NCBI GenBank assembly: GCA_046596505.1
Contig: JBKJMA010000211.1
Span: 1-34,328, forward strand
DNA: 34,328 nucleotides
From: Sphingomicrobium sp.
GTDB lineage: Bacteria > Pseudomonadota > Alphaproteobacteria > Sphingomonadales > Sphingomonadaceae
Reading direction: 5' to 3'
Shown: positions 1,533 to 25,467 of the stretch, piece after piece
Position numbering within the stretch: position 1 is the stretch's first letter
Layout: every line of letters starts with the position of its first letter
Notes under the pieces: generated by a model
Told to the model about the DNA's origin: nothing
The model's database searches: none
The model's input: the letters and a program-made list of their open reading frames with translations, nothing else
Position numbers and translations under genes: made by a program

Positions 1533-2032
1533 CGCAAAGCCGGCCAAGCTCCATTCGGCCACTTCCGGTCATTTCGATGTTCATTAGCTGGAACGCCCGG
1601 ATTTGGCCGATTACGGCCCAACTGCTTTTAGCTCGCGGCCAATGGAAGGTGACATTCGAGCTGTGCAACGACGAGTGCCTGCTCCTGATCCAATCCATTA
1701 CATCCGCCGAAACGCAGTTGCCGGGATAACGCGGTCTCTTTGTTTCACTTTTGCCGCAACGTAATTGGGGCCGGATGCAGGTGCCAGGCTTCGCCAACTC
1801 CCATTGCCATTCGCTGGGTCGAGCCGTGCAACCCCGTCTCCGGCTAAAAGCGGCAAATGCGCACCTGGCGGGTGGCCATCTGCAAAGTTGATGCCGAATT
1901 CGCCAGCGCGCATGTGTGTTCGGCGCGGGCGGGGTAGATTGATCCATTTTCATAGCAAAAAGAATGATTTACAAATTGCCAGAAAGCCTTTGTTCGCGCG
2001 CCCACGACTAAGTAACTTAATCGGTCGGAGAG

Positions 2033-2057
2033 GGAACCGAATCGCTTCCGTCCGGTT
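2033..2057 (+). promoter_or_regulatory. Putative EcfG (sigmaT/RpoE2, general stress response) promoter
   Basis: GGAAC-N16-GGTT (= GGAAC-N17-GTT) placed just upstream of RBS GGAGG (2066-2070) and GTG 2077. Confidence 0.6.
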
Positions 2058-2076
2058 GTCGCTCCGGAGGCCCACT

Positions 2077-3010: not shown

Positions 3011-3739
3011 ATGCGATCCACCATCCCTCCGCTGCGGGCTCCGCCCTTGCGTCAACCCGAGCGCGTCGAGCGCGGAAGCGTGTTGATCGCCATCATCACG
3101 GTCCATCTGCTCGTGTTGCTGTGGCTCTTTACTCGGCCGATAACGGAGCAAGTGCGCCGCGATGCGGGCGGGGATCTCGTCCTTATCTCGATCTCGGACG
3201 GCAAGCCTGCAGCAACCCCGCCAACCGTCCCGAAGCCTCCACCTGCGATCGTGTTACCGGCCCCAGCAATCATCCTTCCAAGCCCGCTTCCCACGCCGAC
3301 TGAGCAACAAAATTGGTCGCAAGCAGGACAGGCTGGTGGTTGTTCGCTTGCGGCCCGCTCAGCCGAGGCCATTGCCAGAGATCCTGCGGCGATGGCTGAA
3401 CTTGCGGCACTTCCGCCCGCTTACCGGACGTCAGCGGATGCGGTGATGCTGTGGAACGGCGAGTGGTTGGCCAGTGCGCCCGGAACGATCGCGCCGCCGC
3501 CAACCCCCTCGCTTCGTCGCGTCGTTGAACAGGTGGTCGCAGATGCCTCCCCCGAATGCCAAACCGCCCCAATGGCCGGCCCGCAATTTCTCGCGATCCC
3601 CGAGCAAAGCCGCAATACAACGCTCGTTATTGGATCGGGGGAATGGCGGTGGTCCGACATTTTGGCGATCTCATCGGCCTGCCTCAAAACCCCGTCAGAT
3701 GCCTGTTTGTCGCCTTTAGCACCGTCTACGACCCCCTGA
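3011..3739 (+). CDS. Hypothetical bitopic membrane protein with Pro-rich periplasmic linker (TonB-like N-terminal architecture)
   Basis: One TM segment containing His (VLIAIITVHLLVLLWLF), then a Pro-rich stretch and a C-terminal domain with 4 Cys. Start uncertain (2969 GTG or 3011 ATG). Confidence 0.65.
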   Translation: MRSTIPPLRAPPLRQPERVERGSVLIAIITVHLLVLLWLFTRPITEQVRRDAGGDLVLISISDGKPAATPPTVPKPPPAIVLPAPAIILPSPLPTPTEQQNWSQAGQAGGCSLAARSAEAIARDPAAMAELAALPPAYRTSADAVMLWNGEWLASAPGTIAPPPTPSLRRVVEQVVADASPECQTAPMAGPQFLAIPEQSRNTTLVIGSGEWRWSDILAISSACLKTPSDACLSPLAPSTTP

Positions 3740-3845
3740 GCGATCAATTATCTTAACGTTAAGCCGAATGTTCGCAGGCGTTCGCAACTTCCCCGCCAAT
3801 CGTCCGTATCTGCTTGAACAACAGACGCGCCACGGGAGGCTCAAT

Positions 3846-5432
3846 ATGACCAGTAGTTTTAGGATCACGACCGCCATTGGGTTGGTAACACTATGTATTG
3901 CCGGCTCGGCAATCGCGTCTAGCCACCGCGAAGCGCCAGGCATCACCAAGATGCCCAAGGTCGACAACACCGACACATATGCCTTCCGCAGCTACGAAAC
4001 CGGTCGCGCCGGATTCACCACACTAATAGCCAATTTCCAGCCGGGCGAATATCCAGGCGCCGGTCCCAACTATTACACGATGGACCCTGACGCGATCTAC
4101 GAGATCCATGTCGACAATGCTGGTGATGCCAAGCAACATCTGACCTTCCAGTTCAAATTCACCAACACGCTCAAGTCCGACACCGGCAAGACCGTGACCG
4201 TCGGCGGCAAGGTGCTTCCGATTGCGCTCAGGGCCATCGGGCCGATCTCGCAGCCGCTCGACGCCAACCTTGGCGAAGATGAGCAATATACGGTCACCCT
4301 CGTCACCGACAGCGCTACCACGGGCACGCGCGCCGCGGTGACCAATGCCAGCGGCGGCGGATCGACCTTCGTCAAGCCGTTCGACAACTCCGGCAACAAG
4401 ACCATCGCCAACTACCCGGCCTATGCCAACCAGTTCATCTACAATGTGAATATCCCGGGTTGCGCGACCGCTGGCCGGGTCTTCGCGGGCCAGCGCCAGG
4501 AAGCCTTCGCGGTCAACCTTGGGCCGATCTTCGATCTCGTCAACTTTGTGCCGATCGAGGGCAGCATTGCCCAGAGCGACGCCAATCAAGAACTGATCGG
4601 AAAGGCCAACGTAACGACCCTTGCGATCGAGGTCCCGACCTCGTGCCTCGTCGGTTCGGGTAATGGCAACATCGGCGTTTGGTCTACTGCCAGCCTGCCA
4701 CAGGCCAAGCTTCACAAGCCCAACCCAACCTATAAGAATCCGACGTTGTCAGGCGGCGCTTATACGCAGGTCTCGCGTCTCGGCATGCCACTCGTCAACG
4801 AGCTCGTTATCGGCCTGCCGCAGAAGGATTTGTTCAACGCGGCAAAGCCGACGCAGGACGGAGCGCTGGCGGATTACGTCACCAACCCCACCTTCCCGGC
4901 AATCCTCGAGGTGCTGTTCGGCGGGGCCGGGATCAGGGCGCCGACCAACTTCCCGCGCAAAGATCTGGTCGCGACCTTCCTGACCGGAATCGAGGGCCTC
5001 AATCAGCTTAAGGCGGTTACGCCTTCTGAGATGATCCGTCTGAATACGACCGTCACCGCCACTCCCGCTGCCAGCCAGAATAGTCTCGGCGTTGCTGGCA
5101 ACGACCTGGCCGGTTTCCCCAATGGCCGTCGTCCCGGTGATGACGTTGTCGATGTCGTTCTCCGGGTCGCAATGGGCCGTCTTTGCTATCCGGTGCCTAT
5201 CGCCGGAACGCAGACTGACCTCAGGCTGTGCGCTCCGACCGACGCTCCCTCGGGTCAGGTGCCATTCACCGACGGCGCTCCGATCAATGCCTTGGGTACT
5301 TACGTCGGTGCCTCCGGTAACACTGGTGCCAATGCGGGTTACGTAAGTCCCCCGGGACCTTATCTGCAGCAGACCTTCCCCTATCTCGCAACCCCGCTGC
5401 GCGGCTCGCCGCGTCCGCAGAACCAGCCATAA
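3846..5432 (+). CDS. DUF4331 domain-containing secreted protein
   Basis: RBS GGGAGG at 3834-3839, ATG 3846; signal peptide ending AIA|SSHREAP; family motifs DNTDTYAF, VFAGQR, QVSRLGMPLVNE, GFPNGRRPGDDVVD, FPYLATP. Confidence 0.88.
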   Translation: MTSSFRITTAIGLVTLCIAGSAIASSHREAPGITKMPKVDNTDTYAFRSYETGRAGFTTLIANFQPGEYPGAGPNYYTMDPDAIYEIHVDNAGDAKQHLTFQFKFTNTLKSDTGKTVTVGGKVLPIALRAIGPISQPLDANLGEDEQYTVTLVTDSATTGTRAAVTNASGGGSTFVKPFDNSGNKTIANYPAYANQFIYNVNIPGCATAGRVFAGQRQEAFAVNLGPIFDLVNFVPIEGSIAQSDANQELIGKANVTTLAIEVPTSCLVGSGNGNIGVWSTASLPQAKLHKPNPTYKNPTLSGGAYTQVSRLGMPLVNELVIGLPQKDLFNAAKPTQDGALADYVTNPTFPAILEVLFGGAGIRAPTNFPRKDLVATFLTGIEGLNQLKAVTPSEMIRLNTTVTATPAASQNSLGVAGNDLAGFPNGRRPGDDVVDVVLRVAMGRLCYPVPIAGTQTDLRLCAPTDAPSGQVPFTDGAPINALGTYVGASGNTGANAGYVSPPGPYLQQTFPYLATPLRGSPRPQNQP

Positions 5433-5447: not shown

Positions 5448-5711
5448 ATGACCAAAAAGCAACTGGTGCAACGCGCATTAATCGGAACGGCCCTCGCGCT
5501 TCCCCTCGCCGCTTGCGGCGGGGGAGGTGGTGGAGGATCCGATTCCGTCATCACCCCGCCGGTGGTCGTCACGACCGCGCAGGAGGATAAGTTCGGCATA
5601 CCGTTCGGGATCGACTTCCGCGCGGCGATGAATTCGGAGCCGGCGAGCGTCAGCGATGGCGACATCGTCCCGGTCACTGCGACCAACGATCCGATCGACA
5701 TCACGCCTTAA
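5448..5711 (+). CDS. Small lipoprotein, DUF4331-associated
   Basis: RBS GGGAGG; lipobox LAAC followed by a poly-Gly tether; 15 bp downstream of DUF4331 and before a shared terminator. Confidence 0.8.
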   Translation: MTKKQLVQRALIGTALALPLAACGGGGGGGSDSVITPPVVVTTAQEDKFGIPFGIDFRAAMNSEPASVSDGDIVPVTATNDPIDITP

Positions 5712-5717
5712 CGAAGT

Positions 5718-5751
5718 AAAGAGCCCGGTGGTCCAGCGATCACCGGGCTTT
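5718..5751. terminator. Probable bidirectional intrinsic terminator
   Basis: AAAG-AGCCCGGTGGTC-cagc-GATCACCGGGCT-TT hairpin between convergent stops at 5711 and 5755. Confidence 0.8.
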
Positions 5752-5754
5752 CGC

Positions 5755-6582
5755 TTACCGACCGCGTTTGGCCGCGTAACCGAAGGTGAGACTGGAGAAA
5801 GTGGTCAGAAAGTCGGCGTTTTGCGATACGATCGGCTTGGTCCAGATGACGTTGACGAGCCATGATCCGACCGGTGGTACCTCGAAGCTTGCTCTTCCCT
5901 TCGCATCCGAACGGGCAATGCGCAGGGGCTTTGCGTCGAATTCGAGACTGGTGAGTTTCACCAATGCGCCGGGCAAGGCGCGGCCTTCAAAGAGGATCTG
6001 GACGGGGAGAATATGATCGGCGCCCAACGAATAGGGATTGCGCAGCGGGACTATCTCGAGCGTGAGGCCGAGCGCACGCGTGGCGAGCGCGTCGTCTCGC
6101 GGCGTCGATCGTCCTACCTGGATGAGAGCTTTTGCGCGCCTGCTATACAGTTCGCGGCCGTTGCGATTCATAGCGCCGCTGCGGGTGCGTGCGTCGATCG
6201 CCGGGGTCAGCCCCTCAACCTTGATATAATCGTTGAAGCGGATCGACGGCAGGTCGCTCGAGGCGTTCGTCGAGACGAGACTGACGATGTGCAACCCCTC
6301 TCGGCGAAAGGTGCGGGTCAGGTGCGGAACTTCGCCTCCCGGCTTAAACAGCGGGCGAACATCGACCGCGCCGCCACGCGCCAGATCGCTGAGCGCCAGC
6401 AGGTGGCCGCCATCGGCTCCCCATTGCTGGCGGAAAGAACCGTGGCCGACCTCGACTACAAACGGAAGCGGATTGCCGGGGCCGGTCTGCCAACTTTGCG
6501 GCTGAAGCCAGAAGTCATGCGCGGATGCGGTGCCGGCAAGCGACAAGCCGATGATCGTTGCAACAAACCCACGCATCTGCAT
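5755..6582 (-). CDS. DUF4198 domain-containing periplasmic protein (NikM/cobalt-nickel uptake-associated family)
   Basis: AAGGA RBS; signal peptide ASA|HDFWL; motifs FNDYIKVEGL, RELYSRRAKALI, LEIVPLRNPY, SDAKGRA, GSWLV, FSSLTF. Start 6582 or 6576. Confidence 0.85.
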   Translation of the reverse strand: MQMRGFVATIIGLSLAGTASAHDFWLQPQSWQTGPGNPLPFVVEVGHGSFRQQWGADGGHLLALSDLARGGAVDVRPLFKPGGEVPHLTRTFRREGLHIVSLVSTNASSDLPSIRFNDYIKVEGLTPAIDARTRSGAMNRNGRELYSRRAKALIQVGRSTPRDDALATRALGLTLEIVPLRNPYSLGADHILPVQILFEGRALPGALVKLTSLEFDAKPLRIARSDAKGRASFEVPPVGSWLVNVIWTKPIVSQNADFLTTFSSLTFGYAAKRGR

Positions 6583-6642
6583 CGTTCCTTATATCGAAGA
6601 CGGTCATTAATAGCGCAAACGATTGCCGGTGTCTCGCTAATA

Positions 6643-7191
6643 ATGATTGCTGGTCCGGCAGTTGCTCATGCCGGAACCGGGCTACCGGGTGGCTTTATTG
6701 CCGGGGTCGGGCATCCTTTGACTGGGCCAGACCATATGTTGGCTATGGTCGCTGTCGGCCTGTGGGGATATTTTCTTGGAAAGCCGCTGATTTACTTGCT
6801 GCCGATGGTCTTCCCGATCATGATGGCGATCGGTGCTGGGGTTGGCATGGCGGGCGTTAGCCTGCCTCCGGTCGAGATCGGCATCGCCATCTCAGTGTGT
6901 GTACTCGGCGCGCTCATCCTCGGCGCAGTCAGGGCGCCGTCATGGGTTGCCTGCGCGGTGGTCGGGTTGTTCGCGCTGTTTCACGGCTATGCCCACGGCA
7001 TCGAACTGCCCTCCGCAGCCGACCCGATCGGTTACAGTCTCGGGTTTGTGCTGGCGACGGGGTCGCTGCACGTCGCTGGGATCGCCATCGGCTCACTCGC
7101 GGCTCTTCCTCGCGGCGAGACGGTCCTACGCGGGCTCGGCGGCGTGGTGTGTGCGATCGGGCTCGGCTTCCTGTGGGTCGCCGCGCGATGA
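6643..7191 (+). CDS. HupE/UreJ family metal (Ni/Co) permease
   Basis: AVA|HAG, GVGHPLTGPDHMLAMVAVGLW, VEIGIAIS, FALFHGYAHGIE, LATGSLHVAG motifs; about 6 TM segments. Start codon uncertain (see findings). Confidence 0.9.
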   Translation: MIAGPAVAHAGTGLPGGFIAGVGHPLTGPDHMLAMVAVGLWGYFLGKPLIYLLPMVFPIMMAIGAGVGMAGVSLPPVEIGIAISVCVLGALILGAVRAPSWVACAVVGLFALFHGYAHGIELPSAADPIGYSLGFVLATGSLHVAGIAIGSLAALPRGETVLRGLGGVVCAIGLGFLWVAAR

Positions 7192-7670
7192 GGGGCGGCT
7201 TCCTGCCTCCCGCGATCCTGATCGCGGCGCTCGGCGTGACGCTCGCCTTCATTCCGCTCCGCCGCGCGCTCATCGCTGCGGGCGTGATGACAATCGTCGC
7301 ATTGGGAACATGGTGGATCGGGCCGCCGGCGCGCTGGATCGAACTGATATTCATTGGCTGTTGGCTAAGCGTCATCGCCACCGCCGCGCTAGTCCATCGC
7401 CCGCTCGAGCTGCCGTCGGCAGCGTTTCTTGCCGCCGCCGCCAATGCCGGGCTGTGGGCCGGCGCGGTGATCGCGGTGGCAGGGAAAGGAAGCGACCTTG
7501 CGATCGCCCTGCCTTGCGTGTTGCTACTCGTCGTCGGTCGCCCGATCGTTGTCCGTGGCTGGGGCATCGGCGTGAAAGTGCTGGCCAGCTGGCTAACCGC
7601 GGTCGCCATCCTCGCGACGATGGTTTCCCTAACCCCGACGCCGGGCTACAAACCCGACCATATGGAATGA
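7188..7670 (+). CDS. Hypothetical integral membrane protein (about 5-6 TM)
   Basis: ATGA overlap with the hupE stop; hydrophobic throughout; ends TPTPGYKPDHME; ATGA overlap with the next gene. Confidence 0.8.
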   Translation: MRGGFLPPAILIAALGVTLAFIPLRRALIAAGVMTIVALGTWWIGPPARWIELIFIGCWLSVIATAALVHRPLELPSAAFLAAAANAGLWAGAVIAVAGKGSDLAIALPCVLLLVVGRPIVVRGWGIGVKVLASWLTAVAILATMVSLTPTPGYKPDHME

Positions 7671-8323
7671 GACGAATGGCCAACCGCACCGATTCCCCGC
7701 TACGATTTGCCTTCTGGTTCGGGCTCGCGTCCTTGTCCTTCGCCGCGCCCGCGCAAGCTCAGGTGATTGAGATCGGCGACGATGGCGCGGCGAGGACATT
7801 TGCCAAACCGACCCGCTTCATTGGCAACGATACCGCTGGCGATCTCGCGGCGACCGTCACCATCCGCCCCCCGGAAGTTGATCGCTTCGAGCGTGCCGCG
7901 AAGGCCGAGGGGCTCGACGTCCATCTGTTGCGCGCGGTAGCCTGGACCGAATCGCGCGGGCGCCAGAATGCCGTCAGTCCCAAGGGCGCGATGGGCGTGA
8001 TGCAGTTGATGCCGTCGACCGCTGCCGAAATGGGGATCAACCCGTACGACCCCGACGCCAACCTCCACGGCGGCGCGCGCTATCTCGCTCGGCAGCTGTC
8101 GCGTTTTCAGAGCGTACCCCTCGCGCTCGCCGCCTATAATGCGGGCCCGGGCGCGGTGCTTCGCTGGGGCGGGATTCCGCCCTATGCCGAGACGCAAGCC
8201 TATGTCGCGCAGATCATGTCACGGTATCAGGTCGCGCCCGCCCCGATCGTCCTCCGAAAAATTGCCGCAACGCCGATCGCCCGCCGGGTCGATCTCATGC
8301 TCATCGAGGTGCCGTCCCTGTGA
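7667..8323 (+). CDS. virB1: Lytic transglycosylase (SLT), VirB1-like
   Basis: Signal peptide AQA|QVI; SLT motifs WTESRG, SPKGAMGVMQLMP, N..GGARYL, ALAAYNAG, ETQAYV; sits directly before virB2. Confidence 0.85.
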   Translation: MRRMANRTDSPLRFAFWFGLASLSFAAPAQAQVIEIGDDGAARTFAKPTRFIGNDTAGDLAATVTIRPPEVDRFERAAKAEGLDVHLLRAVAWTESRGRQNAVSPKGAMGVMQLMPSTAAEMGINPYDPDANLHGGARYLARQLSRFQSVPLALAAYNAGPGAVLRWGGIPPYAETQAYVAQIMSRYQVAPAPIVLRKIAATPIARRVDLMLIEVPSL

Positions 8324-8619
8324 AGAAACTCATTCCCGCCGCCGTCCTGACGCTGTTCGCCGCGGCCCGTGCCGACGCACAATATGCCGCGCCTGACCCC
8401 GCCGGTTCAGGCCCGATCATCGGCGCGGTCGACTGGTTGCAAGGGACATTGCTCGGCAATGTCGCGACCGCCGTGGCGGTTATCGCGGTCGCCGCGGTCG
8501 GGTTCATGATGCTGACCGGAAGGATAAACTGGAAATATGGCGCAACCGTCGTCGTCGGGCTGTTCATCCTGTTCGGCGCGGCCTCCATTGTCGGCGGCAT
8601 TCGCTCGGTCGCCGGCTAG
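8320..8619 (+). CDS. virB2: T4SS major pilin, TrbC/VirB2 family
   Basis: 99 aa; signal peptide plus two hydrophobic helices (LLGNVATAVAVIAVAAVGFMMLTGR, VVVGLFILFGAASIV); GTGA overlap with virB1. Confidence 0.9.
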   Translation: MKKLIPAAVLTLFAAARADAQYAAPDPAGSGPIIGAVDWLQGTLLGNVATAVAVIAVAAVGFMMLTGRINWKYGATVVVGLFILFGAASIVGGIRSVAG

Positions 8620-8892
8620 ATGGCCGACCCGCTGTTCCGCGCATTGGCCCGGCCGCAGATGGTGGCGGGCGTGACCTACCCGTTCTTCGTCATGAACGGG
8701 ATCGTCGCGGCGGAGCTGTTCCTGATCTTCAAGTCCCCGCTCGCCCTGCTTCCCGCGCTAGTCATCCACGCGCTCGGTTATGCCGCGCACCTGCGTGACC
8801 CGCACGTCATGGCGCTATGGATGACCCGCCTCCGCCGCACCCCGCGCGTCGCCAATTACAAGTTACGGGGCGCCAATGTTTACTGCCCGTAA
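8620..8892 (+). CDS. virB3: T4SS VirB3
   Basis: DPLFRALARPQMVAGV motif, two TM segments, RDPH; located between virB2 and virB4. Confidence 0.9.
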   Translation: MADPLFRALARPQMVAGVTYPFFVMNGIVAAELFLIFKSPLALLPALVIHALGYAAHLRDPHVMALWMTRLRRTPRVANYKLRGANVYCP

Positions 8893-11239
8893 CCGCGCCG
8901 CCCGGAAGGAAGTCGCGGCCGGGGTTCACCTGCCCTACCTCGCGCAGGTTGACGACCACACCCTGCTGACCCGCAACGGCCAGTTGATGCAGGTTATCAA
9001 GCTCGACGGCTTGCCGTTCGAGACGATCGGCCGCGCCGACCTCGACTCGCGGCTCGCGGTGCGCGACGCGATGTTCCAGTCGATCGGCTCGTCGCGCTTC
9101 GCGATCGTCCACCATGTCGTGCGCCGTGCGGTCGAGCCGCGTTTCGAGGGCCAGTTCGGCGACCCTTTCAGCGCGAGCCTCGATCAAGCCTGGCGCGATC
9201 GACTCGCTACCCGCCGATTGTTCGTCAACGACCTCTACTTGACGCTGATCGTACGCCCGTTGCGCGGTCGCGCCGGGTGGGCGGAAAAATTGCTGGGGGC
9301 CGCGGGAAGCCGCTCGGACCAAGGCGAGCGCGGGGCCGATTTGCGGCTATTATCACAGGCGCGCGAGCAGCTGATGGCGGCGCTCGAGCCTTATGGCCCG
9401 ACCTTGCTGACGGCCTATGACCTCCCGAGTGGGCTCGCGTCGCAGCAACTGGAGTTTCTCGCGACGCTGTTCAACGGCACCGCCACGCCGATGCTGCTTC
9501 CGACCGGCGACCTCGGTCACGCCGTCCCGCGCCGCACGATCAGCTTCGGCGCCGACACGATCGAGCTCGGCCCGGTCGATGGCGAGCCCCCCGAATTCGC
9601 GGCGATCCTGTCGGCCAAGGATTATCCCAGCACGACCTCGGCGGGGATGCTCGACGACATTTATCGCCTGCCGTTCGCGATGCAGGTGACCCAGAGTTTC
9701 GCCTTCGTCGACCGCGGCCCGGCGCAGGAGCGGATGGACCTCGCACTCCGCCGGATGCGATCGGCCGACGATGCGGCAGTGTCGCTGCGCTCGGAACTCT
9801 CCGCTGCGAAGGACGATGTAGCCGCCGGCCGCGCCGGGTTCGGTGAGCATCATTTGTCGATCCAGATCAACGCCGACAGCCCCGCCAGCCTCGACCAGGC
9901 GACCGGCGAAGTGCAGGCCGCGCTCGCCGAAACCGGCTTCTCGGTCGTCCGGGAGGAACTCGGCCTGGAAGCCGCCTTCTGGGCGCAGTTCCCCGGCAAT
10001 TTCGACTATATCGCCCGCCGCGCACTCGTCTCGACCGCCAATTTCGCGGGCTTTGCCAGCGCGCATAATTTCCCCGTGGGACGCCCCGACGGCAATCATT
10101 GGGGCGACGCCGTCACCCTGTTCGAAACCACCGCCGCCGGACCCTATTTCTTCAACTTTCACCGCGGCGATCTCGGCAATTTCACGGTCATCGGCCCGTC
10201 GGGATCGGGCAAGACCGTGGTCCTCGCCTTCCTTCTGGCGCAGGCGCGGCGGTTCGACCCGCGCATCGTGTTCTTCGACAAGGATCGCGGCGCCGAGATC
10301 TTCCTTCGCGCGATCGGCGGCACGTATGAGGCGCTGCGCCCCGGCGAGCCGACGCGGATGAACCCGCTCGCGCTGCCCGATACCCCGGTTAACCGCCGCT
10401 TTCTCGCCGAATGGCTCGCCCGGCTTGCCGTCGGCGAGGGCCAGCCGCTCAATGTCGAGGAGAGTGCCTGGATCGTCGAGGCGATCGACACCGCCATGGC
10501 GGGCCCGCGCGAACTGCGCCGGTTGCGTCATGTCGCCGAATTGTTTCGCGGGCGAGGGCGCGCCTCGGCAGGCGATCTCGCCGCGCGGCTCGCGCCGTGG
10601 CATTCGGCGGGCGAGTTCGCCTGGTTGTTCGACAATGAGGAGGACCGGCTCGACCTGGCGACTCCGACGCTCGGGTTCGACATGACCGCGGTCCTCGACC
10701 AGCCCGCGCTGCGCGCGCCGACGATGTTGTACCTCTTCCACCGCGTGGAGGAGCGGCTCGACGGCAAGCCGACGATCATCGTCGTCGACGAAGGCTGGAA
10801 GGCGCTCGACGACGAGGTGTTCGTGGCGCGCATTCGCGACTGGGAGAAGACCATCCGCAAGCGCGGCGGGATCGTCGGTTTCGCCACCCAATCCGCCTCC
10901 GATGCGCTGCAGAGCCGGATCGCCAGCGCGATCATCGAGCAGGCGGGGACACAGGTCTTCATGGCCAATTCGAGCGCGCAAGCGTCCGACTATATCGACG
11001 GCTTCGGGTTGACCGAGACGGAATATGATATCGTCCGCTCGATGCCCGAAACCGCGCGCGCCTTCCTCGTCAAGCATGGCACCGACAGCGTCGTGGTGCG
11101 GCTCAACCTCGGTTCTGAACCGCAGCTGCTGACAGTGCTGTCGGGTCGCGAGACGACGGTGCGCCTGCTCGACAAGCTTCGCGCCGAGGTCGGCGATGAT
11201 CCCGCCGACTGGCTGCCCAGACTGGTTGCGGCGGCATGA
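8876..11239 (+). CDS. virB4: T4SS ATPase VirB4
   Basis: 787 aa; HLPY, AAFWAQFPGN, PYFFNFH, Walker A GPSGSGKT, FFDKDRG, Walker B IIVVDEGW, KTIRKRGG, FATQS. Confidence 0.97.
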   Translation: MFTARNRAARKEVAAGVHLPYLAQVDDHTLLTRNGQLMQVIKLDGLPFETIGRADLDSRLAVRDAMFQSIGSSRFAIVHHVVRRAVEPRFEGQFGDPFSASLDQAWRDRLATRRLFVNDLYLTLIVRPLRGRAGWAEKLLGAAGSRSDQGERGADLRLLSQAREQLMAALEPYGPTLLTAYDLPSGLASQQLEFLATLFNGTATPMLLPTGDLGHAVPRRTISFGADTIELGPVDGEPPEFAAILSAKDYPSTTSAGMLDDIYRLPFAMQVTQSFAFVDRGPAQERMDLALRRMRSADDAAVSLRSELSAAKDDVAAGRAGFGEHHLSIQINADSPASLDQATGEVQAALAETGFSVVREELGLEAAFWAQFPGNFDYIARRALVSTANFAGFASAHNFPVGRPDGNHWGDAVTLFETTAAGPYFFNFHRGDLGNFTVIGPSGSGKTVVLAFLLAQARRFDPRIVFFDKDRGAEIFLRAIGGTYEALRPGEPTRMNPLALPDTPVNRRFLAEWLARLAVGEGQPLNVEESAWIVEAIDTAMAGPRELRRLRHVAELFRGRGRASAGDLAARLAPWHSAGEFAWLFDNEEDRLDLATPTLGFDMTAVLDQPALRAPTMLYLFHRVEERLDGKPTIIVVDEGWKALDDEVFVARIRDWEKTIRKRGGIVGFATQSASDALQSRIASAIIEQAGTQVFMANSSAQASDYIDGFGLTETEYDIVRSMPETARAFLVKHGTDSVVVRLNLGSEPQLLTVLSGRETTVRLLDKLRAEVGDDPADWLPRLVAAA

Positions 11240-12429
11240 ACCCCGACCTGTGTGCCCCCGCCGGAGCTCCCGGCCTCGTCGCCGACCTGCTCGCCAATAC
11301 CGACTGCCAGGCGTCGAGCCTCGTCGAGCGCGGCTATTCCGCGCTGTCTACCCCGGGCGCCGCAACCGCGGCTGTGCTGACCTCGCTAATGGTCATTGCC
11401 GTCGCACTTTACGGATACCGGCTGCTACTCGGCAAAGGCCTCGCGCTTAGCGATGTCACCGGTCTCGCCATCCGCCTCGGGGTCGTCCTCCTCCTCGCCG
11501 CCTCATGGTCGTCGTTCCAGGCACTTGCGTATGACGCCTTCGCCCGTGCCCCGTCGCGCATTGCGAGCGAGCTGGTGGTCGCAATCGATTCGCCCGCCCC
11601 GCTCGACGGAGTGCAATCGGCGCTAGACCGGATCGAGCAGGGCAGTGTTGGCTGGCGGACGCGCGCAGGGATCGCCTCGCCGCTGGTCGGCGGCGCTCCG
11701 ACTGCGGCGATGGCGCTCAACGTCTCTTCCTTCCTGCTGACCCTATCGACCGTGGGGCTTCTGGTCGTCTCGCGGATCTTGCTCGCCCTGCTGTTGGCGA
11801 TCACGCCGGTAATGGCGGGTTTCCTGCTGTTCGACGCGACGCGCGGGTTGCTCGAGGGGTGGCTCCGGACGCTCACCGGCGCGGCGCTCGTCCCGCTGTT
11901 CGTTCTGATCCTGTGCGCGATTGAACTCGCGATCCTCTCACCGCTGCTCGACCGAATGCTCGCCGATCAGGCTAGCGGCCGGTTCGAGCTAGACACCGTC
12001 ACCCCGGTCGCGCTGGTCGTGATCGTGTTCAGCATCGCAATCGTTGCTTCTGCCCGCGCCGCAACCACCATCGCGCGCGGCATTCGGCTCCCGCGCAAGG
12101 GCTTCAGCGGCAGCGCTGCGGTTGCCAATGCGGCTCCCTCCGCGATCGCCGCTGAGCGTCCCCTGTTGCTATCCGGCCCCCGCTCGGCCGCCGTAACCCC
12201 TGTGGCGCGCGCGCTCGAAAGCGCGGCACGACGCGACGCCGAAGAAAGCACCCAGCGTACGGTCGCGGCGGCCTCCCGCGGCTCGCGTGAGATCCACAGC
12301 AGCAGCACCACCATTGCGGGCGCCACAAGCGCGTCGAATCCGTCCGAAGCGGGCTCGCGACCTTATCTACCACCACCGCGTACCCGTCTTCCGCGCGCTT
12401 CTCGCGCCGCAGCCCGCAGGGATATATGA
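11236..12429 (+). CDS. virB6: T4SS inner-membrane protein VirB6/TrbL
   Basis: Polytopic; LLALLLAITPVMAGFLLFDATRGLLEGW motif typical of VirB6; ATGA overlaps at both ends. Confidence 0.9.
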   Translation: MNPDLCAPAGAPGLVADLLANTDCQASSLVERGYSALSTPGAATAAVLTSLMVIAVALYGYRLLLGKGLALSDVTGLAIRLGVVLLLAASWSSFQALAYDAFARAPSRIASELVVAIDSPAPLDGVQSALDRIEQGSVGWRTRAGIASPLVGGAPTAAMALNVSSFLLTLSTVGLLVVSRILLALLLAITPVMAGFLLFDATRGLLEGWLRTLTGAALVPLFVLILCAIELAILSPLLDRMLADQASGRFELDTVTPVALVVIVFSIAIVASARAATTIARGIRLPRKGFSGSAAVANAAPSAIAAERPLLLSGPRSAAVTPVARALESAARRDAEESTQRTVAAASRGSREIHSSSTTIAGATSASNPSEAGSRPYLPPPRTRLPRASRAAARRDI

Positions 12430-13097
12430 CCGAACACGATAAATATTACGCCGCAGCGCAAGGCTGGGCCGACGAGCGCGTCGAGTCCGAGCGCAAGGCG
12501 CGCAAACTCGCCTGGACTGTAGCCGGGGTTGCCGGGGCAATCGCATTGGTGCTCGCCCTCGCGCTGGCGATGCTGGTCCCGCTGAAGACCGTCCAGCCCT
12601 ATGTCCTCACGGTCGACAAGCAGACTGGCGCGGTCGAGGTCGCGACCACCGTCGCCAACGGCCGGCTGACCCAGAACGAAGCGGTCATCCAGGCGCAGCT
12701 CGCCAACTATGTCCGCGTTCGTGAAACCTTCGACGCGAGCGACCTCGCCGCCAATTATCGCCGGGTCCAGCTGTTGTCCGGCCCCGACGTGCGCACCGCC
12801 TACATCGCCTCGATGGCCGCGGCCAACCCGGCCAGCCCGCTCCACACCCTGTCGCCCGGGGACACGCTCGCGGTGCGGATCAAGAGCGTGTCGCTGACCG
12901 CGGCGGGAACGGCGCTGGTCCGCTATGACCTCGACCGTACTGTTGCGGGTGGACGCGGGGTCAGCTCGACACCCTATGTCAGCGCCATCACCTACGGCTT
13001 CAGCGACAAGCCGCTGCGGGCAGCCGACCGGTTCGAGAATCCACTCGGGTTCGAGGTCACTCGCTATCGCCGCGATGCCGAAGGGATGACCCAGTGA
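12426..13097 (+). CDS. virB8: T4SS VirB8
   Basis: One TM segment, then PLKTVQPYVLTVDKQTG, YVRVRE, and RFENPLGFEVTRYR at the C-terminus. Confidence 0.95.
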   Translation: MTEHDKYYAAAQGWADERVESERKARKLAWTVAGVAGAIALVLALALAMLVPLKTVQPYVLTVDKQTGAVEVATTVANGRLTQNEAVIQAQLANYVRVRETFDASDLAANYRRVQLLSGPDVRTAYIASMAAANPASPLHTLSPGDTLAVRIKSVSLTAAGTALVRYDLDRTVAGGRGVSSTPYVSAITYGFSDKPLRAADRFENPLGFEVTRYRRDAEGMTQ

Positions 13098-13786
13098 AGC
13101 GTATCCTGCTGCTTGCCCTGAGCCTATTCGCGCTCACCGCCGAAACCCTACCCCGCCCCGGTCCGGTCGATCCGCACATCCAGCGCGTGCAGTTCGATCC
13201 CGAGCAGGTCGTCGCGCTGCACGGCGCGCTCGGCTGGCAGGTCATGATCGAATTCGGCGGTGACGAGCGGATCGAGAATGTCTCGATTGGCGACAGCCTG
13301 GCGTGGCAGGTGACCCCGAACAAGCGAGCCCGGATGCTGTTCCTCAAGCCCCTGCTGCGCAATGGCGCGACCAATATGACCGTCGTTACCAGCCTGCGAC
13401 GTTATGCCTTTTCGCTGTCGACCGGACCGCGCGAACGACGCACGCCATGGGTGCTGCACTTCGACTATCCCCCGCCGCCGATTGTCGAAACCCTCCCCGA
13501 GCCCCCACCCCCGCCGCCGGTCAAGCTCGACTTCAGCTACTCCCGCTTGGGTGACCCTGCAGTCATGCCGGCCCGGGTATGGAACGATGGCCGCCAGACC
13601 TATTTCGAGTTCGCCGAGGATACGCCTTTCCCCGCGATCTTCGCCTGGGGCCCGGGCAAGAACGACGAATCACTGGTGAATGTCGCAACCCGCGGCCGAA
13701 TTCAGGTCGTCCAGCAGATGGGCCAGCGCTTCATCCTCCGCTCCGGCACCCACTTCGCGACCGTCACAAGGACATATCAGCGATGA
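13094..13786 (+). CDS. virB9: T4SS core-complex VirB9/TrbG
   Basis: Signal peptide; DPHIQRVQF, IGDSLAWQV, LFLKP, TNMTVVT..RRY, VWNDGRQTYFEF, PAIF, LVN, FILRSG. Confidence 0.93.
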   Translation: MKRILLLALSLFALTAETLPRPGPVDPHIQRVQFDPEQVVALHGALGWQVMIEFGGDERIENVSIGDSLAWQVTPNKRARMLFLKPLLRNGATNMTVVTSLRRYAFSLSTGPRERRTPWVLHFDYPPPPIVETLPEPPPPPPVKLDFSYSRLGDPAVMPARVWNDGRQTYFEFAEDTPFPAIFAWGPGKNDESLVNVATRGRIQVVQQMGQRFILRSGTHFATVTRTYQR

Positions 13787-15015
13787 CCGAGCTTCCCCCT
13801 GTCAAGATTCCCCGCGTCGCGCGCAAGGCATCGCGAACTAAAATCGCGCCCTTCGCACTCGGGCTTGGTGTGATTGGGACAGCGGTGTTCGCCAGCCTCG
13901 CCAGTCACCGCGCCGCGCGCGAGGAGCAGGCCACGGCCCTGCCCCCGCTGCGCACGACCACGATCACCGCGCCCGCGCCTCCCCCGCCAGCGATCCTTGC
14001 TACCCCGACGACCATCGTCCCGATCCCGATCCCGACGACGCAACCGATTCCGGTCATCGCCGTGCCGATGCAGTCTCAGCGAACTTACGGTCTCATCCCA
14101 GTGGTTCGCGCTCCACGCTCCGACAATGGTGCCGCTGATCGCGCGCGCGCGCGGATCGCGGCCCCAGCACTGATTGTCGATCTGCCGCCCGCTCGGACCG
14201 GCGGCGATGGTCCTCGCTTGGGCCAGACATCGTTCAACGAAAGCGCGATGCCCCTTGCGGCGACATTGTTTCAAACCGCGTCGCTTCAGGACCCGACGGG
14301 TGCCGCGATCGTCGCGGCCGGCCCACCTGCCATCCCCGAAACGATCGTGCCCATCGCGTCGATCGATCCCGTCGCGCGCGATCTTAATTCGAACGAGCGT
14401 TTTTCCAGCCGAGCTGGCAACAAGGAGACGGAGGTCGCGCGGGCCCAGCGCCTACCCAACCAGGATTTGCTCGTTGTCCAGGGCACGATCATCGGCGCGG
14501 TGATGGAGACCGCCCTCAACTCGGACCTGCCCGGTTTTGCGCGCGCCATCGTCACCCGCGACGTCCTGTCGTTCGACGGCAGCCAGGTGCTGATCCCCGC
14601 CGGAAGCCACGTCATCGGCGAATATAATTCGGGCGTGGCGCAAGGCGCGAGCCGGATCTTCATCGTCTGGAACCGACTCATCCGGCCCGATGGCGTCTCG
14701 GTTTCGCTCGCCTCACCAGCGGTCGATGACCTTGGTCGCGGCGGACTAGGCGGCAAGGTCAACCGCCATTTCCTCCAGCGGTTCGGCGGCGCGATCCTGC
14801 TGTCAGTGCTGACCGGGGGCCTCAACGCTTTCACCCAGTCTCAGACGCGCGGGTCGACCGTGATCGTCAGCAGCTCGAACGAAGCGACGTCGCTTGCCGG
14901 CCAAGCATCGAAGGGCAGCGACATCGCTCCGACCATCAAGACCCGGCAGGGTGCAACAGTGCGCATCTTCGTTGCGCGCGACCTCGATTTCTCCGCCGTC
15001 GGTCCGACCATTTGA
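13783..15015 (+). CDS. virB10: T4SS core-complex VirB10/TrbI
   Basis: ATG 13783 (ATGA overlap with virB9); TM segment, Pro-rich linker, QGTIIGAVMETALNSDLPG, VLIPAGS..IGEY, RIFIVWNRL, DDLGRGG, RFGGAILLS, IFVARDLDFS. Confidence 0.95.
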   Translation: MTELPPVKIPRVARKASRTKIAPFALGLGVIGTAVFASLASHRAAREEQATALPPLRTTTITAPAPPPPAILATPTTIVPIPIPTTQPIPVIAVPMQSQRTYGLIPVVRAPRSDNGAADRARARIAAPALIVDLPPARTGGDGPRLGQTSFNESAMPLAATLFQTASLQDPTGAAIVAAGPPAIPETIVPIASIDPVARDLNSNERFSSRAGNKETEVARAQRLPNQDLLVVQGTIIGAVMETALNSDLPGFARAIVTRDVLSFDGSQVLIPAGSHVIGEYNSGVAQGASRIFIVWNRLIRPDGVSVSLASPAVDDLGRGGLGGKVNRHFLQRFGGAILLSVLTGGLNAFTQSQTRGSTVIVSSSNEATSLAGQASKGSDIAPTIKTRQGATVRIFVARDLDFSAVGPTI

Positions 15016-15022
15016 CCCCGTT

Positions 15023-16006
15023 ATGAACAGCCAGCCGCTCCTGTTCCTCGATGCCTTCCTTGCGCCGCTGGCCGCGTCGCTGGCACGCGACGATGTCACC
15101 GATGTCTACATCAACCGCCCCGGCGAGCTGTGGCTCGAAACTTCCCACGGGATCGAACGCCACGAGGATCCGCGGCTCGACGACGACGCGCTGTGGCGCC
15201 TGTCGCGCCAGATCGCCGCTGCCACCGACCAGGGCATCAGCCGCGAGCATCCGCTTCTCGCTGCCACCCTGCCGAGCGGCGCGCGGGTCCAGGTCTGTGC
15301 GCCCCCAGCGACCCGTGGCCACGTCTGCGTCGCGGTGCGCAAGCATGTCGTCCCCGACCTGACCCTCGACGACTATCTTACTGCCGGCGCCTTCGACCGG
15401 GTCGGTGAAGCGGCGCTGTCACAGGCCGCGACCGACCTCGCGTTGAAAGCCCAGCTCGCGTCGGGCGACGTGCGCGGCTTCCTCGCCGCAGCGGTTCGTG
15501 CACGCAAGTCGATCCTCATTTCGGGAGGCACCGCAACCGGCAAGACTACGCTGCTCAATGCGCTACTCAAGGAAGCGCCGGCAGACGAGAGGATCGTGCT
15601 GATTGAAGACACCCCCGAAATTCAGCTGACCCACGCCAACGCGGTCGGGCTGGTCGCGGTACGCGGGCGGCTTGGCGAAGCGTCGGTCAGCGCCGCCGAC
15701 CTGCTCGAGGCGGCGCTTCGGCTTCGCCCCGACCGGATCATCATGGGCGAAATCCGCGGCGTGGAGGCCCTGAGTTTCCTGCGCGCGGTCAACACCGGTC
15801 ACCCGGGATCGATCACCACCATCCATGCCAGTTCGCCCGACGGCGCGCTTGAGCAGCTCGCATTGATCGCGGCGCAGGCCGGGACCGACCTCGGCCGCGA
15901 GGAACTGAAAGCCTACATGCGCTCGGTGCTCGACATCATCATCCAGCTCGGCCGGTCGGACGGCCAGCGGCTGGTCAGCGATATTGTCTTTCTGGCTAAG
16001 GAGTAG
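15023..16006 (+). CDS. virB11: T4SS P-type ATPase VirB11
   Basis: DVYINRPG, Walker A GGTATGKTT, IEDTPE, LRLRPDRIIMGEIRG, NTGHPGSITTIHA. Confidence 0.96.
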   Translation: MNSQPLLFLDAFLAPLAASLARDDVTDVYINRPGELWLETSHGIERHEDPRLDDDALWRLSRQIAAATDQGISREHPLLAATLPSGARVQVCAPPATRGHVCVAVRKHVVPDLTLDDYLTAGAFDRVGEAALSQAATDLALKAQLASGDVRGFLAAAVRARKSILISGGTATGKTTLLNALLKEAPADERIVLIEDTPEIQLTHANAVGLVAVRGRLGEASVSAADLLEAALRLRPDRIIMGEIRGVEALSFLRAVNTGHPGSITTIHASSPDGALEQLALIAAQAGTDLGREELKAYMRSVLDIIIQLGRSDGQRLVSDIVFLAKE

Positions 16007-16454
16007 CAACCGAGCGCAGCGCCATGCGAAAGCGAAGCGTGCTATTGGCCGGGATCGGACCCGCCGCCTGCGCGCCATAGCCAAGCGCCGGCGGTATCCA
16101 CACGACCCACTCGTCGCCCGGTCGCATTAGCTTGAGCGCCTCGTTGAAACCAGGGACGAACTGGCCGACCGCGCCACTGATTGGCTTACCGCGTGCAAAG
16201 CTGCTGTCGAACACGGTGCCGTCCAGCAACTTGCCTTCATAATCGAACGTTACCGTCTCGCCCTCGACCGGTACCCGCCCCGTTTTCGGACCCTTGCGCA
16301 CGACATGATAAGCGAGCCCGCTCGGCGTCGTGACGTGGCGCACCGCAGCGAGCGCAAGCGGTGTGCGATCCACATTCGGCCCTGCCCGCTCGGTCATACA
16401 ACCACCGAGCGACAGGGCCAGCGATACGCTTGCGACGATCAGTCCGAACCGCAT
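15996..16454 (-). CDS. FKBP-type peptidyl-prolyl cis-trans isomerase, lipoprotein
   Basis: Lipobox LGGC; TTPSGLAY, YEGKLLDGTVFDSS, VPGFNEALKLM, IPPALGYG, IPANSTLRF. Confidence 0.92.
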   Translation of the reverse strand: MRFGLIVASVSLALSLGGCMTERAGPNVDRTPLALAAVRHVTTPSGLAYHVVRKGPKTGRVPVEGETVTFDYEGKLLDGTVFDSSFARGKPISGAVGQFVPGFNEALKLMRPGDEWVVWIPPALGYGAQAAGPIPANSTLRFRMALRSVATP

Positions 16455-16457
16455 GAA

Positions 16458-17396
16458 CTAGCCCCGTTCGCCCGTCGACGGCGGCGGCGGAGGCGGTGGC
16501 GGCGGGGGCGGCGGAACCGGGCAGGCGGCGGCCATGTCGATCACCGACCCATCGGCGCAAGTCTGGGTCGCTGGCGGTGGCGGTGGCGGGGGCGCTTCGA
16601 CCATCGGCGGCGGCGGCGGCGGTGGGGCGGCCTCGACACCGCCGAAGTTGAAGATCAAGCTCGCCAGCAGGCTATGCGAGCGGAACTTGCCGGTTTCAGC
16701 AAATGTCGAAACCGAAGTCGCGCCCGTCACTGGATCCGAGAACGCGGCACCGTTCGAGAAGCGCAGGCGCTTCGTCTGGAAATAGCGATATTTCAGCCCC
16801 AGATCGATGTTGGGGCTGATCGCCGTCGAGACGCCGGCGATCAACTGGTAAGCCATGGCGCTATGGCGCTGGCCGAACGTCTTGACCCGGGCCCGGCCCA
16901 CACCGCCGCCGCCGTAGATACGAAGGCCGGGGGCGATGTCATAGTCGATGAGGCCGTTGAGCATTGCCGACATGACGCGCGTGCGATCGTCAAAAGCAAA
17001 GCTGCTCGACGTAACGCCGCTGATCGGCGCGGTGTTGATCGCGGCCAGCAGCGCCGGACTGGCGGTGAAGCTCTTAGCGCGAGTGCGCTTGTAGCCGAGC
17101 TCGCCCTCAAGCCGAAAAAAACCAAAGTCGTAGCCGGCGATCACGTCGAGATCGACGCCCTTCTTGTAATCCGTAACGAACCCGCTGCCGTAGCTGTTGT
17201 TGCTTGTCGTGACCGTCTGCCCAAGCAACCCGCCACCAGTCGGCACCGACTGAACACGGGTCGAAATCACGTTGTAGGCGGTGTTGCGCGGGAACAGGAT
17301 GCCGCCCTCGACGCCAACATAGGGAGCGCCGTCCCGCGCCAAAGCCGGACTAGCGAGTGCGGACATGACCGTGGCCGCGACGATGAATCTGCGCAT
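16458..17396 (-). CDS. Outer-membrane beta-barrel protein (OmpA/OmpW-like TM domain) with Pro-rich C-terminal tail
   Basis: Signal peptide ALA|RDGAPYVGVEGG; GYDFGFFRLEGELGYK, YGGGGVG, YQLIAG, GLKYRYF, SLIFNFG; tail PPPP..TQTCADGSVI..CPVPPPP..GERG. No OmpA peptidoglycan-binding domain. Confidence 0.88.
   Translation of the reverse strand: MRRFIVAATVMSALASPALARDGAPYVGVEGGILFPRNTAYNVISTRVQSVPTGGGLLGQTVTTSNNSYGSGFVTDYKKGVDLDVIAGYDFGFFRLEGELGYKRTRAKSFTASPALLAAINTAPISGVTSSSFAFDDRTRVMSAMLNGLIDYDIAPGLRIYGGGGVGRARVKTFGQRHSAMAYQLIAGVSTAISPNIDLGLKYRYFQTKRLRFSNGAAFSDPVTGATSVSTFAETGKFRSHSLLASLIFNFGGVEAAPPPPPPPMVEAPPPPPPPATQTCADGSVIDMAAACPVPPPPPPPPPPPPSTGERG
16477..16630 (-). repeat. Low-complexity (CCG/CCN)n poly-proline coding runs
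   Basis: GGC/GGT/GGG triplet runs on the + strand encode three poly-Pro tracts of the OMP tail. Confidence 0.7.
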
Positions 17397-25458: not shown

Positions 25459-25467
25459 GCAGGGAAT

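What the first reader, a model, noticed from the sequence alone, without database searches (positions are those of the whole stretch)
6643..16006. Reduced, non-conjugative T4SS translationally coupled to a HupE/UreJ metal permease
Seen: hupE, the unknown membrane gene and virB1-2-3-4-6-8-9-10-11 form one unbroken chain. Junctions are ATGA/GTGA overlaps at 7188, 7667, 8320, 11236, 12426, 13094 and 13783; virB2/virB3 abut, virB3/virB4 overlap by 17 bp, and virB10/virB11 have a 7-bp gap. The virB4/virB6 and virB6/virB8 overlaps leave no room for virB5 or virB7. No VirD4, relaxase, oriT context or integrase is in the window, and both ATPases keep intact Walker motifs. Known: conjugative T4SS need VirD4, a relaxase and usually VirB5, while HupE/UreJ are Ni/Co permeases. 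Inference: a domesticated T4SS co-expressed with metal transport, with a function I cannot match to a characterised system.
Basis: partly seen in the sequence, partly recalled or inferred. Interest (0 to 1): 0.88.

Follow-up and report, generated by a model that had tools for sequence, protein, structure and literature searches.

The report
Type IV exporter beside metal cassette
A sphingomonad chromosome carries an intact type IV secretion machine that lacks the parts used for DNA transfer, next to a cassette of predicted metal-binding proteins; the machine likely pushes a folded periplasmic protein and its predicted lipoprotein anchor to the cell surface, and would stand in for the type II secretion system that most of its carriers lack.

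Summary
All genes and junctions are as reported. The machine (virB1-2-3-4-6-8-9-10-11) belongs to a chromosomal family found in 73 of 200 Sphingomonadales genomes; none of the 73 has VirB5 over cut-off and 41 have no VirD4 anywhere, so it is not a conjugation system. The hupE coupling is one arrangement of a six-gene cassette (gene X, DUF4331, lipoprotein, DUF4198, HupE, membrane protein) found beside virB in 37 of 42 informative close loci; hupE-membrane gene precedes virB1 in only 25 of 45. The link is not obligate: among 91 Caulobacteraceae-level genomes, 12 have the machine, 17 have DUF4331, none both. DUF4331 sits beside a type II system in 5 of 29 virB-free loci; other branches of the machine sit beside unrelated tethered lipoproteins; type II GspG is in 12 of 64 carriers versus 17 of 25 non-carriers. 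Best reading (0.5): a Ptl-like two-step exporter for Sec-exported DUF4331 plus lipoprotein; export is untested. The scan found this pairing before on other DNA (e1-5450256, part of which later fell). New variant of a known kind.

The parts
3011..3739 (+). Gene X: single membrane anchor, Pro-rich linker, periplasmic domain with two invariant Cys and four invariant Trp; cassette member, function unknown
   Evidence: no Pfam/NCBIfam; model pLDDT 83.6 (121), no fold match, best Z 2.7
3784..3808 (+). ECF-sigma-type promoter-like site before DUF4331 (spacer one base shorter than the consensus; read by eye, below the matrix threshold)
   Evidence: consensus in 22 of 55 upstream regions, shuffled mean 1.2, max 4; position
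3846..5432 (+). DUF4331 protein, signal peptide then Ser-Ser-His; DOMON/CBM9-like beta-sandwich; proposed cargo
   Evidence: PF14224 E 1.7e-134; SSH in 89 of 150 representatives; model pLDDT 91 (49); VIA best Z 7.5 Sas6 (57)
5448..5711 (+). 87-aa lipoprotein (lipobox, Gly/Ser/Pro/Thr tether, conserved 45-aa tail); proposed anchor of DUF4331
   Evidence: invariant Cys in 31 of 31 aligned; follows DUF4331 directly in the mapped loci; no Pfam
5714..5756 (.). Strong hairpin between the convergent lipoprotein and DUF4198 genes; probable two-way terminator
   Evidence: -27.2 kcal/mol, z -4.7
5755..6582 (-). DUF4198 periplasmic protein with His at mature position 1; family shown to bind Ni
   Evidence: PF10670 E 2.3e-29; hit to PDB 9GCB; PMC12537917 section 6 (74)
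6643..7191 (+). HupE/UreJ permease with HPxxGxDH signature; true start probably near 6610
   Evidence: PF04955 E 1e-53; motif invariant in 21 of 21 (48); PMC7689651 passage
7188..7670 (+). 160-aa membrane protein, 5-6 hydrophobic segments, conserved C-terminal PGYxxDHME; partner of HupE
   Evidence: beside hupE in the metagenome loci with flank; ESM feature lead to HupE 0.84 (24), not confirmed by hhalign
7667..8323 (+). virB1-like lytic transglycosylase
   Evidence: PF01464
8320..8619 (+). virB2 pilin
   Evidence: PF04956
8620..8892 (+). virB3
   Evidence: PF05101
8876..11239 (+). virB4 ATPase
   Evidence: PF03135; TIGR00929 over cut-off; Walker motifs
11236..12429 (+). virB6 with long low-complexity C-terminal tail
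   Evidence: PF04610
12426..13097 (+). virB8
   Evidence: PF04335
13094..13786 (+). virB9
   Evidence: PF03524
13783..15015 (+). virB10
   Evidence: PF03743; NF038091 over cut-off
15023..16006 (+). virB11 ATPase
   Evidence: TIGR02788 over cut-off; Walker motifs

Best explanation
This is a chromosomal type IV secretion machine without VirD4, VirB5 or VirB7 in its gene cluster that likely works as a two-step protein exporter, and in this lineage its likely cargo is the neighbouring DUF4331 protein together with its predicted lipoprotein anchor. Shown: gene set, intact ATPase motifs, family-wide absence of VirB5 and frequent absence of VirD4, conserved neighbourhood. Inferred: Sec carries DUF4331 and the lipoprotein into the periplasm; signal cleavage leaves Ser-Ser-His, a copper/nickel-type tip; VirB4 and VirB11 drive a VirB2 pseudopilus that pushes the folded complex through the VirB9-VirB10 channel, the cargo taking the place of VirB5 as proposed for Ptl; the complex stays tethered on the surface and captures metal, which passes by a TonB-dependent receptor, DUF4198 and HupE plus the membrane protein (or these load metal onto DUF4331 before export). 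HupE is thus a fellow member of the cargo's cassette, not a part of the machine.
For: Gene set equals the Ptl class on VirD4, VirB5, VirB11 (PMC12857230 section 20). Cassette beside virB in 37 of 42 informative close loci and in several gene orders. Cassette lies beside at least three VirB4 sub-lineages; two loci pair a window-type DUF4331 with a distant VirB4, i.e. re-coupling (101, log-likelihood drop 625; group chosen after seeing the trees). DUF4331 lies directly beside a type II system in 5 of 29 virB-free loci, in two families. DUF4331 relatives carry FlgD-Ig, a weak T9SS-like tail, DUF4214 or CHRD (7 of 30 long hits). Other branches sit beside unrelated exported proteins: DUF1800 lipoprotein/DUF1501, a 500-aa lipoprotein with a TonB receptor, a dioxygenase-like lipoprotein, Rhs proteins; tethered lipoproteins within 5 kb in 32 of 74 loci versus 2 of 76 background windows (125, pattern drawn after seeing them). 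GspG in 12 of 64 carriers versus 17 of 25 non-carriers of the same family (kin not independent). The same ECF-type motif precedes DUF4331 and, in seven related loci, the DUF4198-virB run.
Against: No export was shown. The two modules are separable: in 91 genomes of family f23, 12 have the machine, 17 have DUF4331, none both; 24 of 29 virB-free DUF4331 loci have no secretion system alongside; 7 membrane-gene groups with at least 5 kb on each side have no virB, 5 of them with DUF4331; 5 close VirB4 loci lack the cassette. Two long metagenome loci (L166, L181) hold virB, DUF4198, hupE and the membrane gene but no DUF4331 in the stretch held. 4 of 11 cassette-plus-virB genomes also have GspG, and 4 of 5 tested have a VirD4-family gene elsewhere. 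In the window a strong hairpin separates DUF4331-lipoprotein from hupE-virB and no ECF motif precedes hupE. No VirB7, which Ptl has. Rhs-branch loci have no tethered lipoprotein (0 of 8).
Confidence: 0.5

Rival explanations
1. The machine is a two-step exporter of other envelope proteins, and the metal cassette is only a co-regulated or hitchhiking neighbour under an ECF stress sigma factor; DUF4331 works in the periplasm.
For: Both modules occur alone; DUF4331 sits with ECF/anti-sigma, TPR, HupE_2 and TonB receptor genes and no virB in gamma/beta-level genomes; shared ECF-type motif; patchy distribution, 1 of 200 sampled Sphingomonadales besides the own genome has both together.
Against: Linkage survives several rearrangements and one partner swap; DUF4331 lies beside a type II system in two other families.
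Confidence: 0.27
2. DNA uptake machine like Helicobacter ComB, used for transformation or as a nutrient source.
For: ComB also lacks VirD4 and VirB5 (PMC12857230 section 20); ComEC is in the genome; PMC4919336 speculates on transformation for the Erythrobacter copy.
Against: VirB11 is kept, which ComB lacks; no competence genes among recurrent neighbours; ComEC rings in 10 of 14 control genomes; neighbours are exported proteins.
Confidence: 0.1
3. Pilus or pseudopilus for adhesion, surface sensing or metal binding, with no protein cargo (Trw-like).
For: VirB2, VirB4 and VirB11 are kept; extra virB2 copies occur in the Rhs branch.
Against: Trw has many VirB2 and VirB5 copies; here one virB2 and no VirB5, which is implicated in pilus extrusion (PMC12857230 section 20).
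Confidence: 0.07
4. Conjugation machine using VirD4, VirB5 and a relaxase in trans, or a decaying ICE.
For: 32 of 73 carriers have a PF02534 gene somewhere; one locus has a TraD gene 1 kb downstream (L080); a preprint calls the Erythrobacter copy an ICE.
Against: 41 of 73 near-complete carriers, seven of them single contigs, have none; VirB5 over cut-off in 0 of 73 but in 4 of 4 control genomes; 1 of 72,556 plasmids has a VirB4 above 46% identity and it is non-mobilizable; Walker motifs intact throughout.
Confidence: 0.06

Closest known systems
Bordetella pertussis Ptl system (PMC12857230 section 20 read; PMC8402538 passages read)
   Same: Type IVA core with VirB11, no VirD4, no VirB5; signal-peptide-bearing candidate cargo genes directly upstream.
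   Different: Has VirB1, lacks VirB7 (PtlI); no toxin genes; cargo untested; free-living hosts; cargo genes change between branches.
Helicobacter pylori ComB DNA-uptake system
   Same: No VirD4, no VirB5, chromosomal.
   Different: VirB11 and VirB1 present, VirB7 absent; no linked competence genes.
Brucella VirB and Bartonella Trw (VirD4-less systems)
   Same: No coupling protein.
   Different: Trw has multiple VirB2/VirB5 copies; Brucella keeps VirB5 and VirB7 (recalled); both serve host infection.
Core Erythrobacter T4SS (PMC4919336 passages; bioRxiv 2025.11.19.689285 passages; PMC2702493 table) and Caulobacter MOBless T4SS (PMC3158045 passage)
   Same: Very probably the same family: same order with lytic transglycosylase and TPR gene, no VirB8; 53-59% VirB4 identity in such loci here.
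   Different: Described without function, or as ICE/transformation genes; those branches lack VirB8 and the DUF4331 cassette.
Type II secretion of lipoproteins, e.g. Caulobacter ElpS (PMC2996285, search listing and start of abstract only)
   Same: Second step of a two-step route for folded periplasmic and lipid-anchored proteins; found beside DUF4331 in 5 genomes.
   Different: Unrelated machine; functional analogue only.
DUF4198 Ni-binding protein and anglerase-HupE/UreJ-2 metal capture (PMC12537917, section 6 and passages read)
   Same: N-terminal His proteins with HupE-type permeases and TonB receptors.
   Different: DUF4331, the lipoprotein, gene X and the membrane protein are not described; no secretion system mentioned in that paper.

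Membership tests
Type IVA (MPF-T) secretion system | VirB4 ATPase with Walker A/B | tested here: met
Type IVA (MPF-T) secretion system | VirB2, B3, B6, B8, B9, B10, B11 homologues in order | tested here: met
Type IVA (MPF-T) secretion system | VirB7 lipoprotein of the outer-membrane core | tested here: inconclusive
   none inside the cluster; an unlinked or unrecognised stand-in cannot be excluded; the 87-aa lipoprotein also occurs without virB
Conjugative T4SS / ICE | VirD4 coupling protein | tested here: not met
   none in locus or own genome, 83.9% complete; none in 41 of 73 carriers
Conjugative T4SS / ICE | VirB5 tip protein | tested here: not met
   0 of 73 over cut-off, 4 of 4 controls positive
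Conjugative T4SS / ICE | Relaxase | tested here: inconclusive
   PF03432 and PF03389 not found in own genome; other MOB families not searched
Ptl-type two-step T4SS | No VirD4, no VirB5, VirB11 present | tested here: met
   PMC12857230
Ptl-type two-step T4SS | VirB7 homologue (PtlI) present and VirB1 absent | tested here: not met
   virB1 present; no virB7 in the cluster (78); PMC8402538
Ptl-type two-step T4SS | Signal-peptide cargo genes adjacent and co-transcribed | tested here: inconclusive
   adjacent yes; directly upstream on the same strand in 12 of 45 loci; hairpin in between in the window
Ptl-type two-step T4SS | Cargo shown to be secreted from the periplasm | not testable with these tools
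   needs secretion assay
ComB-type DNA uptake T4SS | No VirB11 | tested here: not met
   virB11 present with intact motifs
Trw-type adhesive T4SS | Multiple VirB2 and VirB5 copies | tested here: not met
   one virB2, no virB5
HupE/UreJ permease | PF04955 and HPXXGXDH signature | tested here: met
HupE/UreJ permease | Ni or Co transport | not testable with these tools
   no urease over cut-off in 5 of 5 and no full NiFe hydrogenase in 5 of 5 genomes (one 66-position match), so the usual Ni clients were not found
DUF4198 N-terminal-His metalloprotein | PF10670 and His at mature position 1 | tested here: met
DOMON/CBM9-like fold (for DUF4331) | Structural match | tested here: inconclusive
   VIA Z 7.5, rmsd 4.8, 196 aligned to Sas6; Z 5.1 to ethylbenzene dehydrogenase chain C; no Foldseek hit

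The most novel reading that the evidence does not exclude
Sphingomonads and caulobacters have turned a conjugation machine into a general surface-display pathway: a VirD4/VirB5/VirB7-less type IV system that, like type II secretion and often in its place, moves folded lipoprotein-anchored complexes from the periplasm to the cell surface, with swappable cargo cassettes (DUF4331 metal capture here; DUF1800/DUF1501, a TonB-receptor partner lipoprotein, a dioxygenase-like lipoprotein or Rhs proteins elsewhere).
Probability: 0.35. Interest if true: 0.88.

Novelty: new variant of a known kind. Interest (0 to 1): 0.7.

Why it matters
The described VirD4-less systems are all from pathogens, and how Ptl pushes a folded cargo through the channel is an open question (PMC12857230). 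Here is a family of the same class in over a third of sampled Sphingomonadales and in Caulobacter, a model organism (its control genome rings for VirB4 but not VirD4 or VirB5), with harmless candidate cargo named by gene neighbourhood. It gives a safe system for two-step type IV secretion, a candidate new route for surface lipoproteins, a function for a near-core Erythrobacter locus now read as an ICE, and a testable location for the unstudied DUF4331 family.

Tried and rejected
RNA runs: none was listed. Sigma-70 and terminator consensus scan: no excess over shuffles. Membrane protein as HupE paralogue: ESM lead 0.84 (24) not confirmed by hhalign, probability 1%. Lipoprotein as VirB7: no PDB match beyond the lipobox, and it follows DUF4331 also where virB is absent; not favoured, not excluded. 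Hidden virB7 in the cluster: none in the window, only shadow-frame hits in relatives. Gene X as VirB5 or TonB stand-in: no fold match. DUF4331 by Foldseek: no hit at E 0.001. Membrane-gene profile over 400 class-level genomes: only the own genome, so the cassette is rare. Class-level VirB4 search scored only 3 candidates a genome and did not define the family's outer limit. Best NCBIfam models for VirB3, B4 and B11 are PRK13898-13900, all below cut-off; I recall these as Rickettsiales models and could not test kinship. Literature: 'DUF4331' 0 papers; searches gave no functional study of this family; the library lacks most subscription papers and supplements were not read.
Full report
Observation. 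The closest relatives are Sphingomonas-labelled genomes with 96-99% VirB4 identity. The own assembly (2.17 Mb, 83.9% complete) has no match to VirD4, VirB5 or two relaxase families and no second copy of the cassette or of virB2-virB10. The unit is larger than reported: upstream lie gene X, DUF4331, an 87-aa lipoprotein and DUF4198.

The machine is a family. A VirB4 at 50% identity or more was found in 73 of 200 Sphingomonadales genomes of at least 95% completeness, near-core in three genera (17 of 17, 10 of 11, 6 of 6), and at 53% or more in 12 of 91 genomes of the family around G557 (relatives there are labelled Caulobacteraceae, the naming of f23 is my inference). Of the 73, 41 have no PF02534 match anywhere, seven of them single-contig genomes; none has VirB5 over cut-off, while 4 of 4 genomes with a 39-41% VirB4 have it next to virB4. 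virB4/virB6 leave at most 30 bp in 74 of 81 loci and the gap after virB6 is at most 30 bp in 77 of 81. VirD4, TraD and VirB5 probes taken from fetched loci hit 1 of 195 loci (TraD in L080). One of 72,556 plasmids has a VirB4 above 46% identity; it is non-mobilizable and lies beside an Rhs gene. So this is a domesticated, non-conjugative type IVA system. The Erythrobacter-type and Caulobacter-type branches also lack virB8, as PMC2702493 noted (table passage). PMC4919336 (passages) found a core Erythrobacter T4SS that follows the genome tree; a preprint (passages) calls it an ICE; PMC3158045 (passages) lists Caulobacter among environmental bacteria with MOBless T4SS. None gives a function.

The link to hupE. 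Among the 47 loci in the window's VirB4 clade (72-99% identity), 37 carry cassette genes (36 by script plus L042, misfiled because its virB4 is cut), 5 do not and 5 are too short. Order varies: of 45 cassette loci the gene before virB1 is the membrane gene in 25, the lipoprotein in 12, DUF4198 in 8; hupE points away from virB in 16, and three loci (L028, L034, L037) have no hupE in the upstream DNA held. Starting from the membrane gene instead (80 metagenome loci, 69 groups at 90%): 27 groups have a virB gene, 9 have none with 3 kb or more each side, 33 are too short. The DUF4331 and VirB4 trees agree broadly, except that L111/L155 join a window-type DUF4331 to a distant VirB4. HupE-type permeases accompany DUF4331 in virB-free loci too, with ECF sigma, RskA/ChrR/NrsF anti-sigma, TPR and TonB-receptor genes. 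HupE is therefore part of the DUF4331 cassette, and the cassette is what pairs with the machine.

The cassette. HupE keeps the HPxxGxDH signature (PMC7689651 passage). DUF4198 has His at mature position 1; a family member binds Ni at 18 nM (PMC12537917 section 6). DUF4331 begins Ser-Ser-His after an AxA site in most representatives (89 of 150, many others are fragments); that Xaa-Xaa-His binds Cu/Ni is my own knowledge. Its model is confident (pLDDT 91) with only a middling match to DOMON/CBM9-like sandwiches (best Z 7.5). The membrane protein ends in a conserved Asp-His-Met tail. No urease over cut-off and no full hydrogenase was found in five carriers, so the metal is not evidently for those enzymes. 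An ECF-type motif (my reading of the type is recalled) precedes DUF4331 in 22 of 55 loci (shuffled mean 1.2); by matrix it precedes hupE in 8 of 53 and DUF4198 in 10 of 51 loci, against 0 of 62 controls, mainly in the S. echinoides branch, where DUF4198 leads into virB1. The window has only a short-spacer version before DUF4331, a strong hairpin after the lipoprotein and no motif before hupE.

Evidence on cargo. (a) In 29 virB-free DUF4331 loci (2, 16, 11; some cut short) five have a type II secretion cluster directly alongside, in two families; 24 have none. (b) Seven of 30 long DUF4331 relatives carry extra domains typical of outer proteins (CHRD 3, FlgD-Ig 2, one with a weak T9SS-like tail, DUF4214 1, plus one carbonic anhydrase). 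(c) Other branches of the machine have their own conserved exported neighbours: DUF1800 lipoprotein with DUF1501, a 500-aa lipoprotein with a TonB receptor, a dioxygenase-like lipoprotein, Rhs/YD proteins. A lipobox followed by a Gly/Ser/Pro/Thr tether occurs within 5 kb in 32 of 74 loci with at least 6 kb of flank versus 2 of 76 ten-kb windows of the own genome; the pattern was drawn after seeing these proteins, kin are not independent, and the Rhs branch scores 0 of 8. (d) In family f1, GspG is in 12 of 64 tested carriers (71 exist in the sample) and 17 of 25 tested non-carriers (57 exist); three related genera supply most of the GspG-free carriers.

Against. The modules are separable: 12 and 17 of 91 genomes with no overlap. 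Four of 11 cassette-plus-virB genomes have GspG, and 4 of 5 have a VirD4-family gene elsewhere. L166 and L181 show virB with DUF4198, hupE and the membrane gene but no DUF4331 in the stretch held. Binding of DUF4331 to the lipoprotein, expression and export are all untested.

Mechanism and comparison. Without a coupling protein, known systems take cargo from the periplasm (Ptl, partly Brucella), take up DNA (ComB) or build adhesive pili (Trw) (PMC12857230 section 20). Keeping VirB11 while losing VirB5 matches Ptl, whose cargo genes lie directly upstream and whose cargo is proposed to replace VirB5 on a piston-like pilus. It works like Ptl most probably; it is not a Ptl member (VirB1 present, no VirB7, no toxin). 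I put export of DUF4331 plus lipoprotein at 0.5, export of other cargo with the cassette as neighbour at 0.27, DNA uptake 0.1, pilus only 0.07, conjugation 0.06.

Novelty. The class is known and the Erythrobacter and Caulobacter copies have been noticed; a function, the missing VirD4/VirB5, the DUF4331 link and the type II alternation were not found in print (open-access library only, supplements not read). Earlier notes of this scan report the same pairing and the same family on other DNA; one was later marked as partly fallen, without saying which part. They are not independent support. Verdict: new variant of a known kind, interest 0.7.

Noticed in passing
window 6610-6643: hupE's in-frame ATG leaves too short a signal peptide; close relatives keep an ATA-GCG about 11 codons upstream and one has no ATG there, suggesting a non-canonical start; only about 30-60 bp separate hupE from the divergent DUF4198.
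   Followed up: partly
window 1765-2931 +: Crp/Fnr-type regulator; relatives recur near the cassette in 14 loci, replaced by AraC or ECF/ChrR genes in other branches.
   Followed up: no
window 195-1476 +: Subtilisin-like peptidase followed by a Gly/Ser/Ala-rich secreted protein; an ECF sigma gene precedes them in L001. Possible further exported proteins.
   Followed up: no
window 15996-17396 -: FKBP-type lipoprotein and an outer-membrane beta-barrel with a Pro-rich tail, convergent on virB11 and conserved in the closest relatives.
   Followed up: no
window 21921-26004: Ordinary carotenoid genes (lycopene cyclase, phytoene desaturase, phytoene synthase, hydroxylase).
   Followed up: no
L117-L124, L128, L136: Erythrobacter-type branch: TonB receptor, unannotated 500-aa lipoprotein and TPR gene upstream, ppk/ppx-like genes downstream in some, no virB8.
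   Followed up: partly
L233-L240: Caulobacter-type branch: DUF1800 lipoprotein and DUF1501 convergent on virB11 in 7 of 8 loci, LuxR-type gene upstream in some.
   Followed up: partly
L120, L126, L133, L067, L070, L253: Branch without virB1 beside Rhs proteins, small signal-peptide YD-repeat proteins and extra virB2 copies; candidate Sec-dependent Rhs delivery by a type IV system.
   Followed up: partly
L085-L110: A second, split DUF4331 type (tandem ORFs of about 230 aa) in 14 of 200 Sphingomonadales genomes.
   Followed up: no
L191, L193, L222, L231: hupE-membrane gene-DUF4198 as a tight three-gene run without virB in soil metagenomes; L222 has a short DUF4331 upstream.
   Followed up: partly
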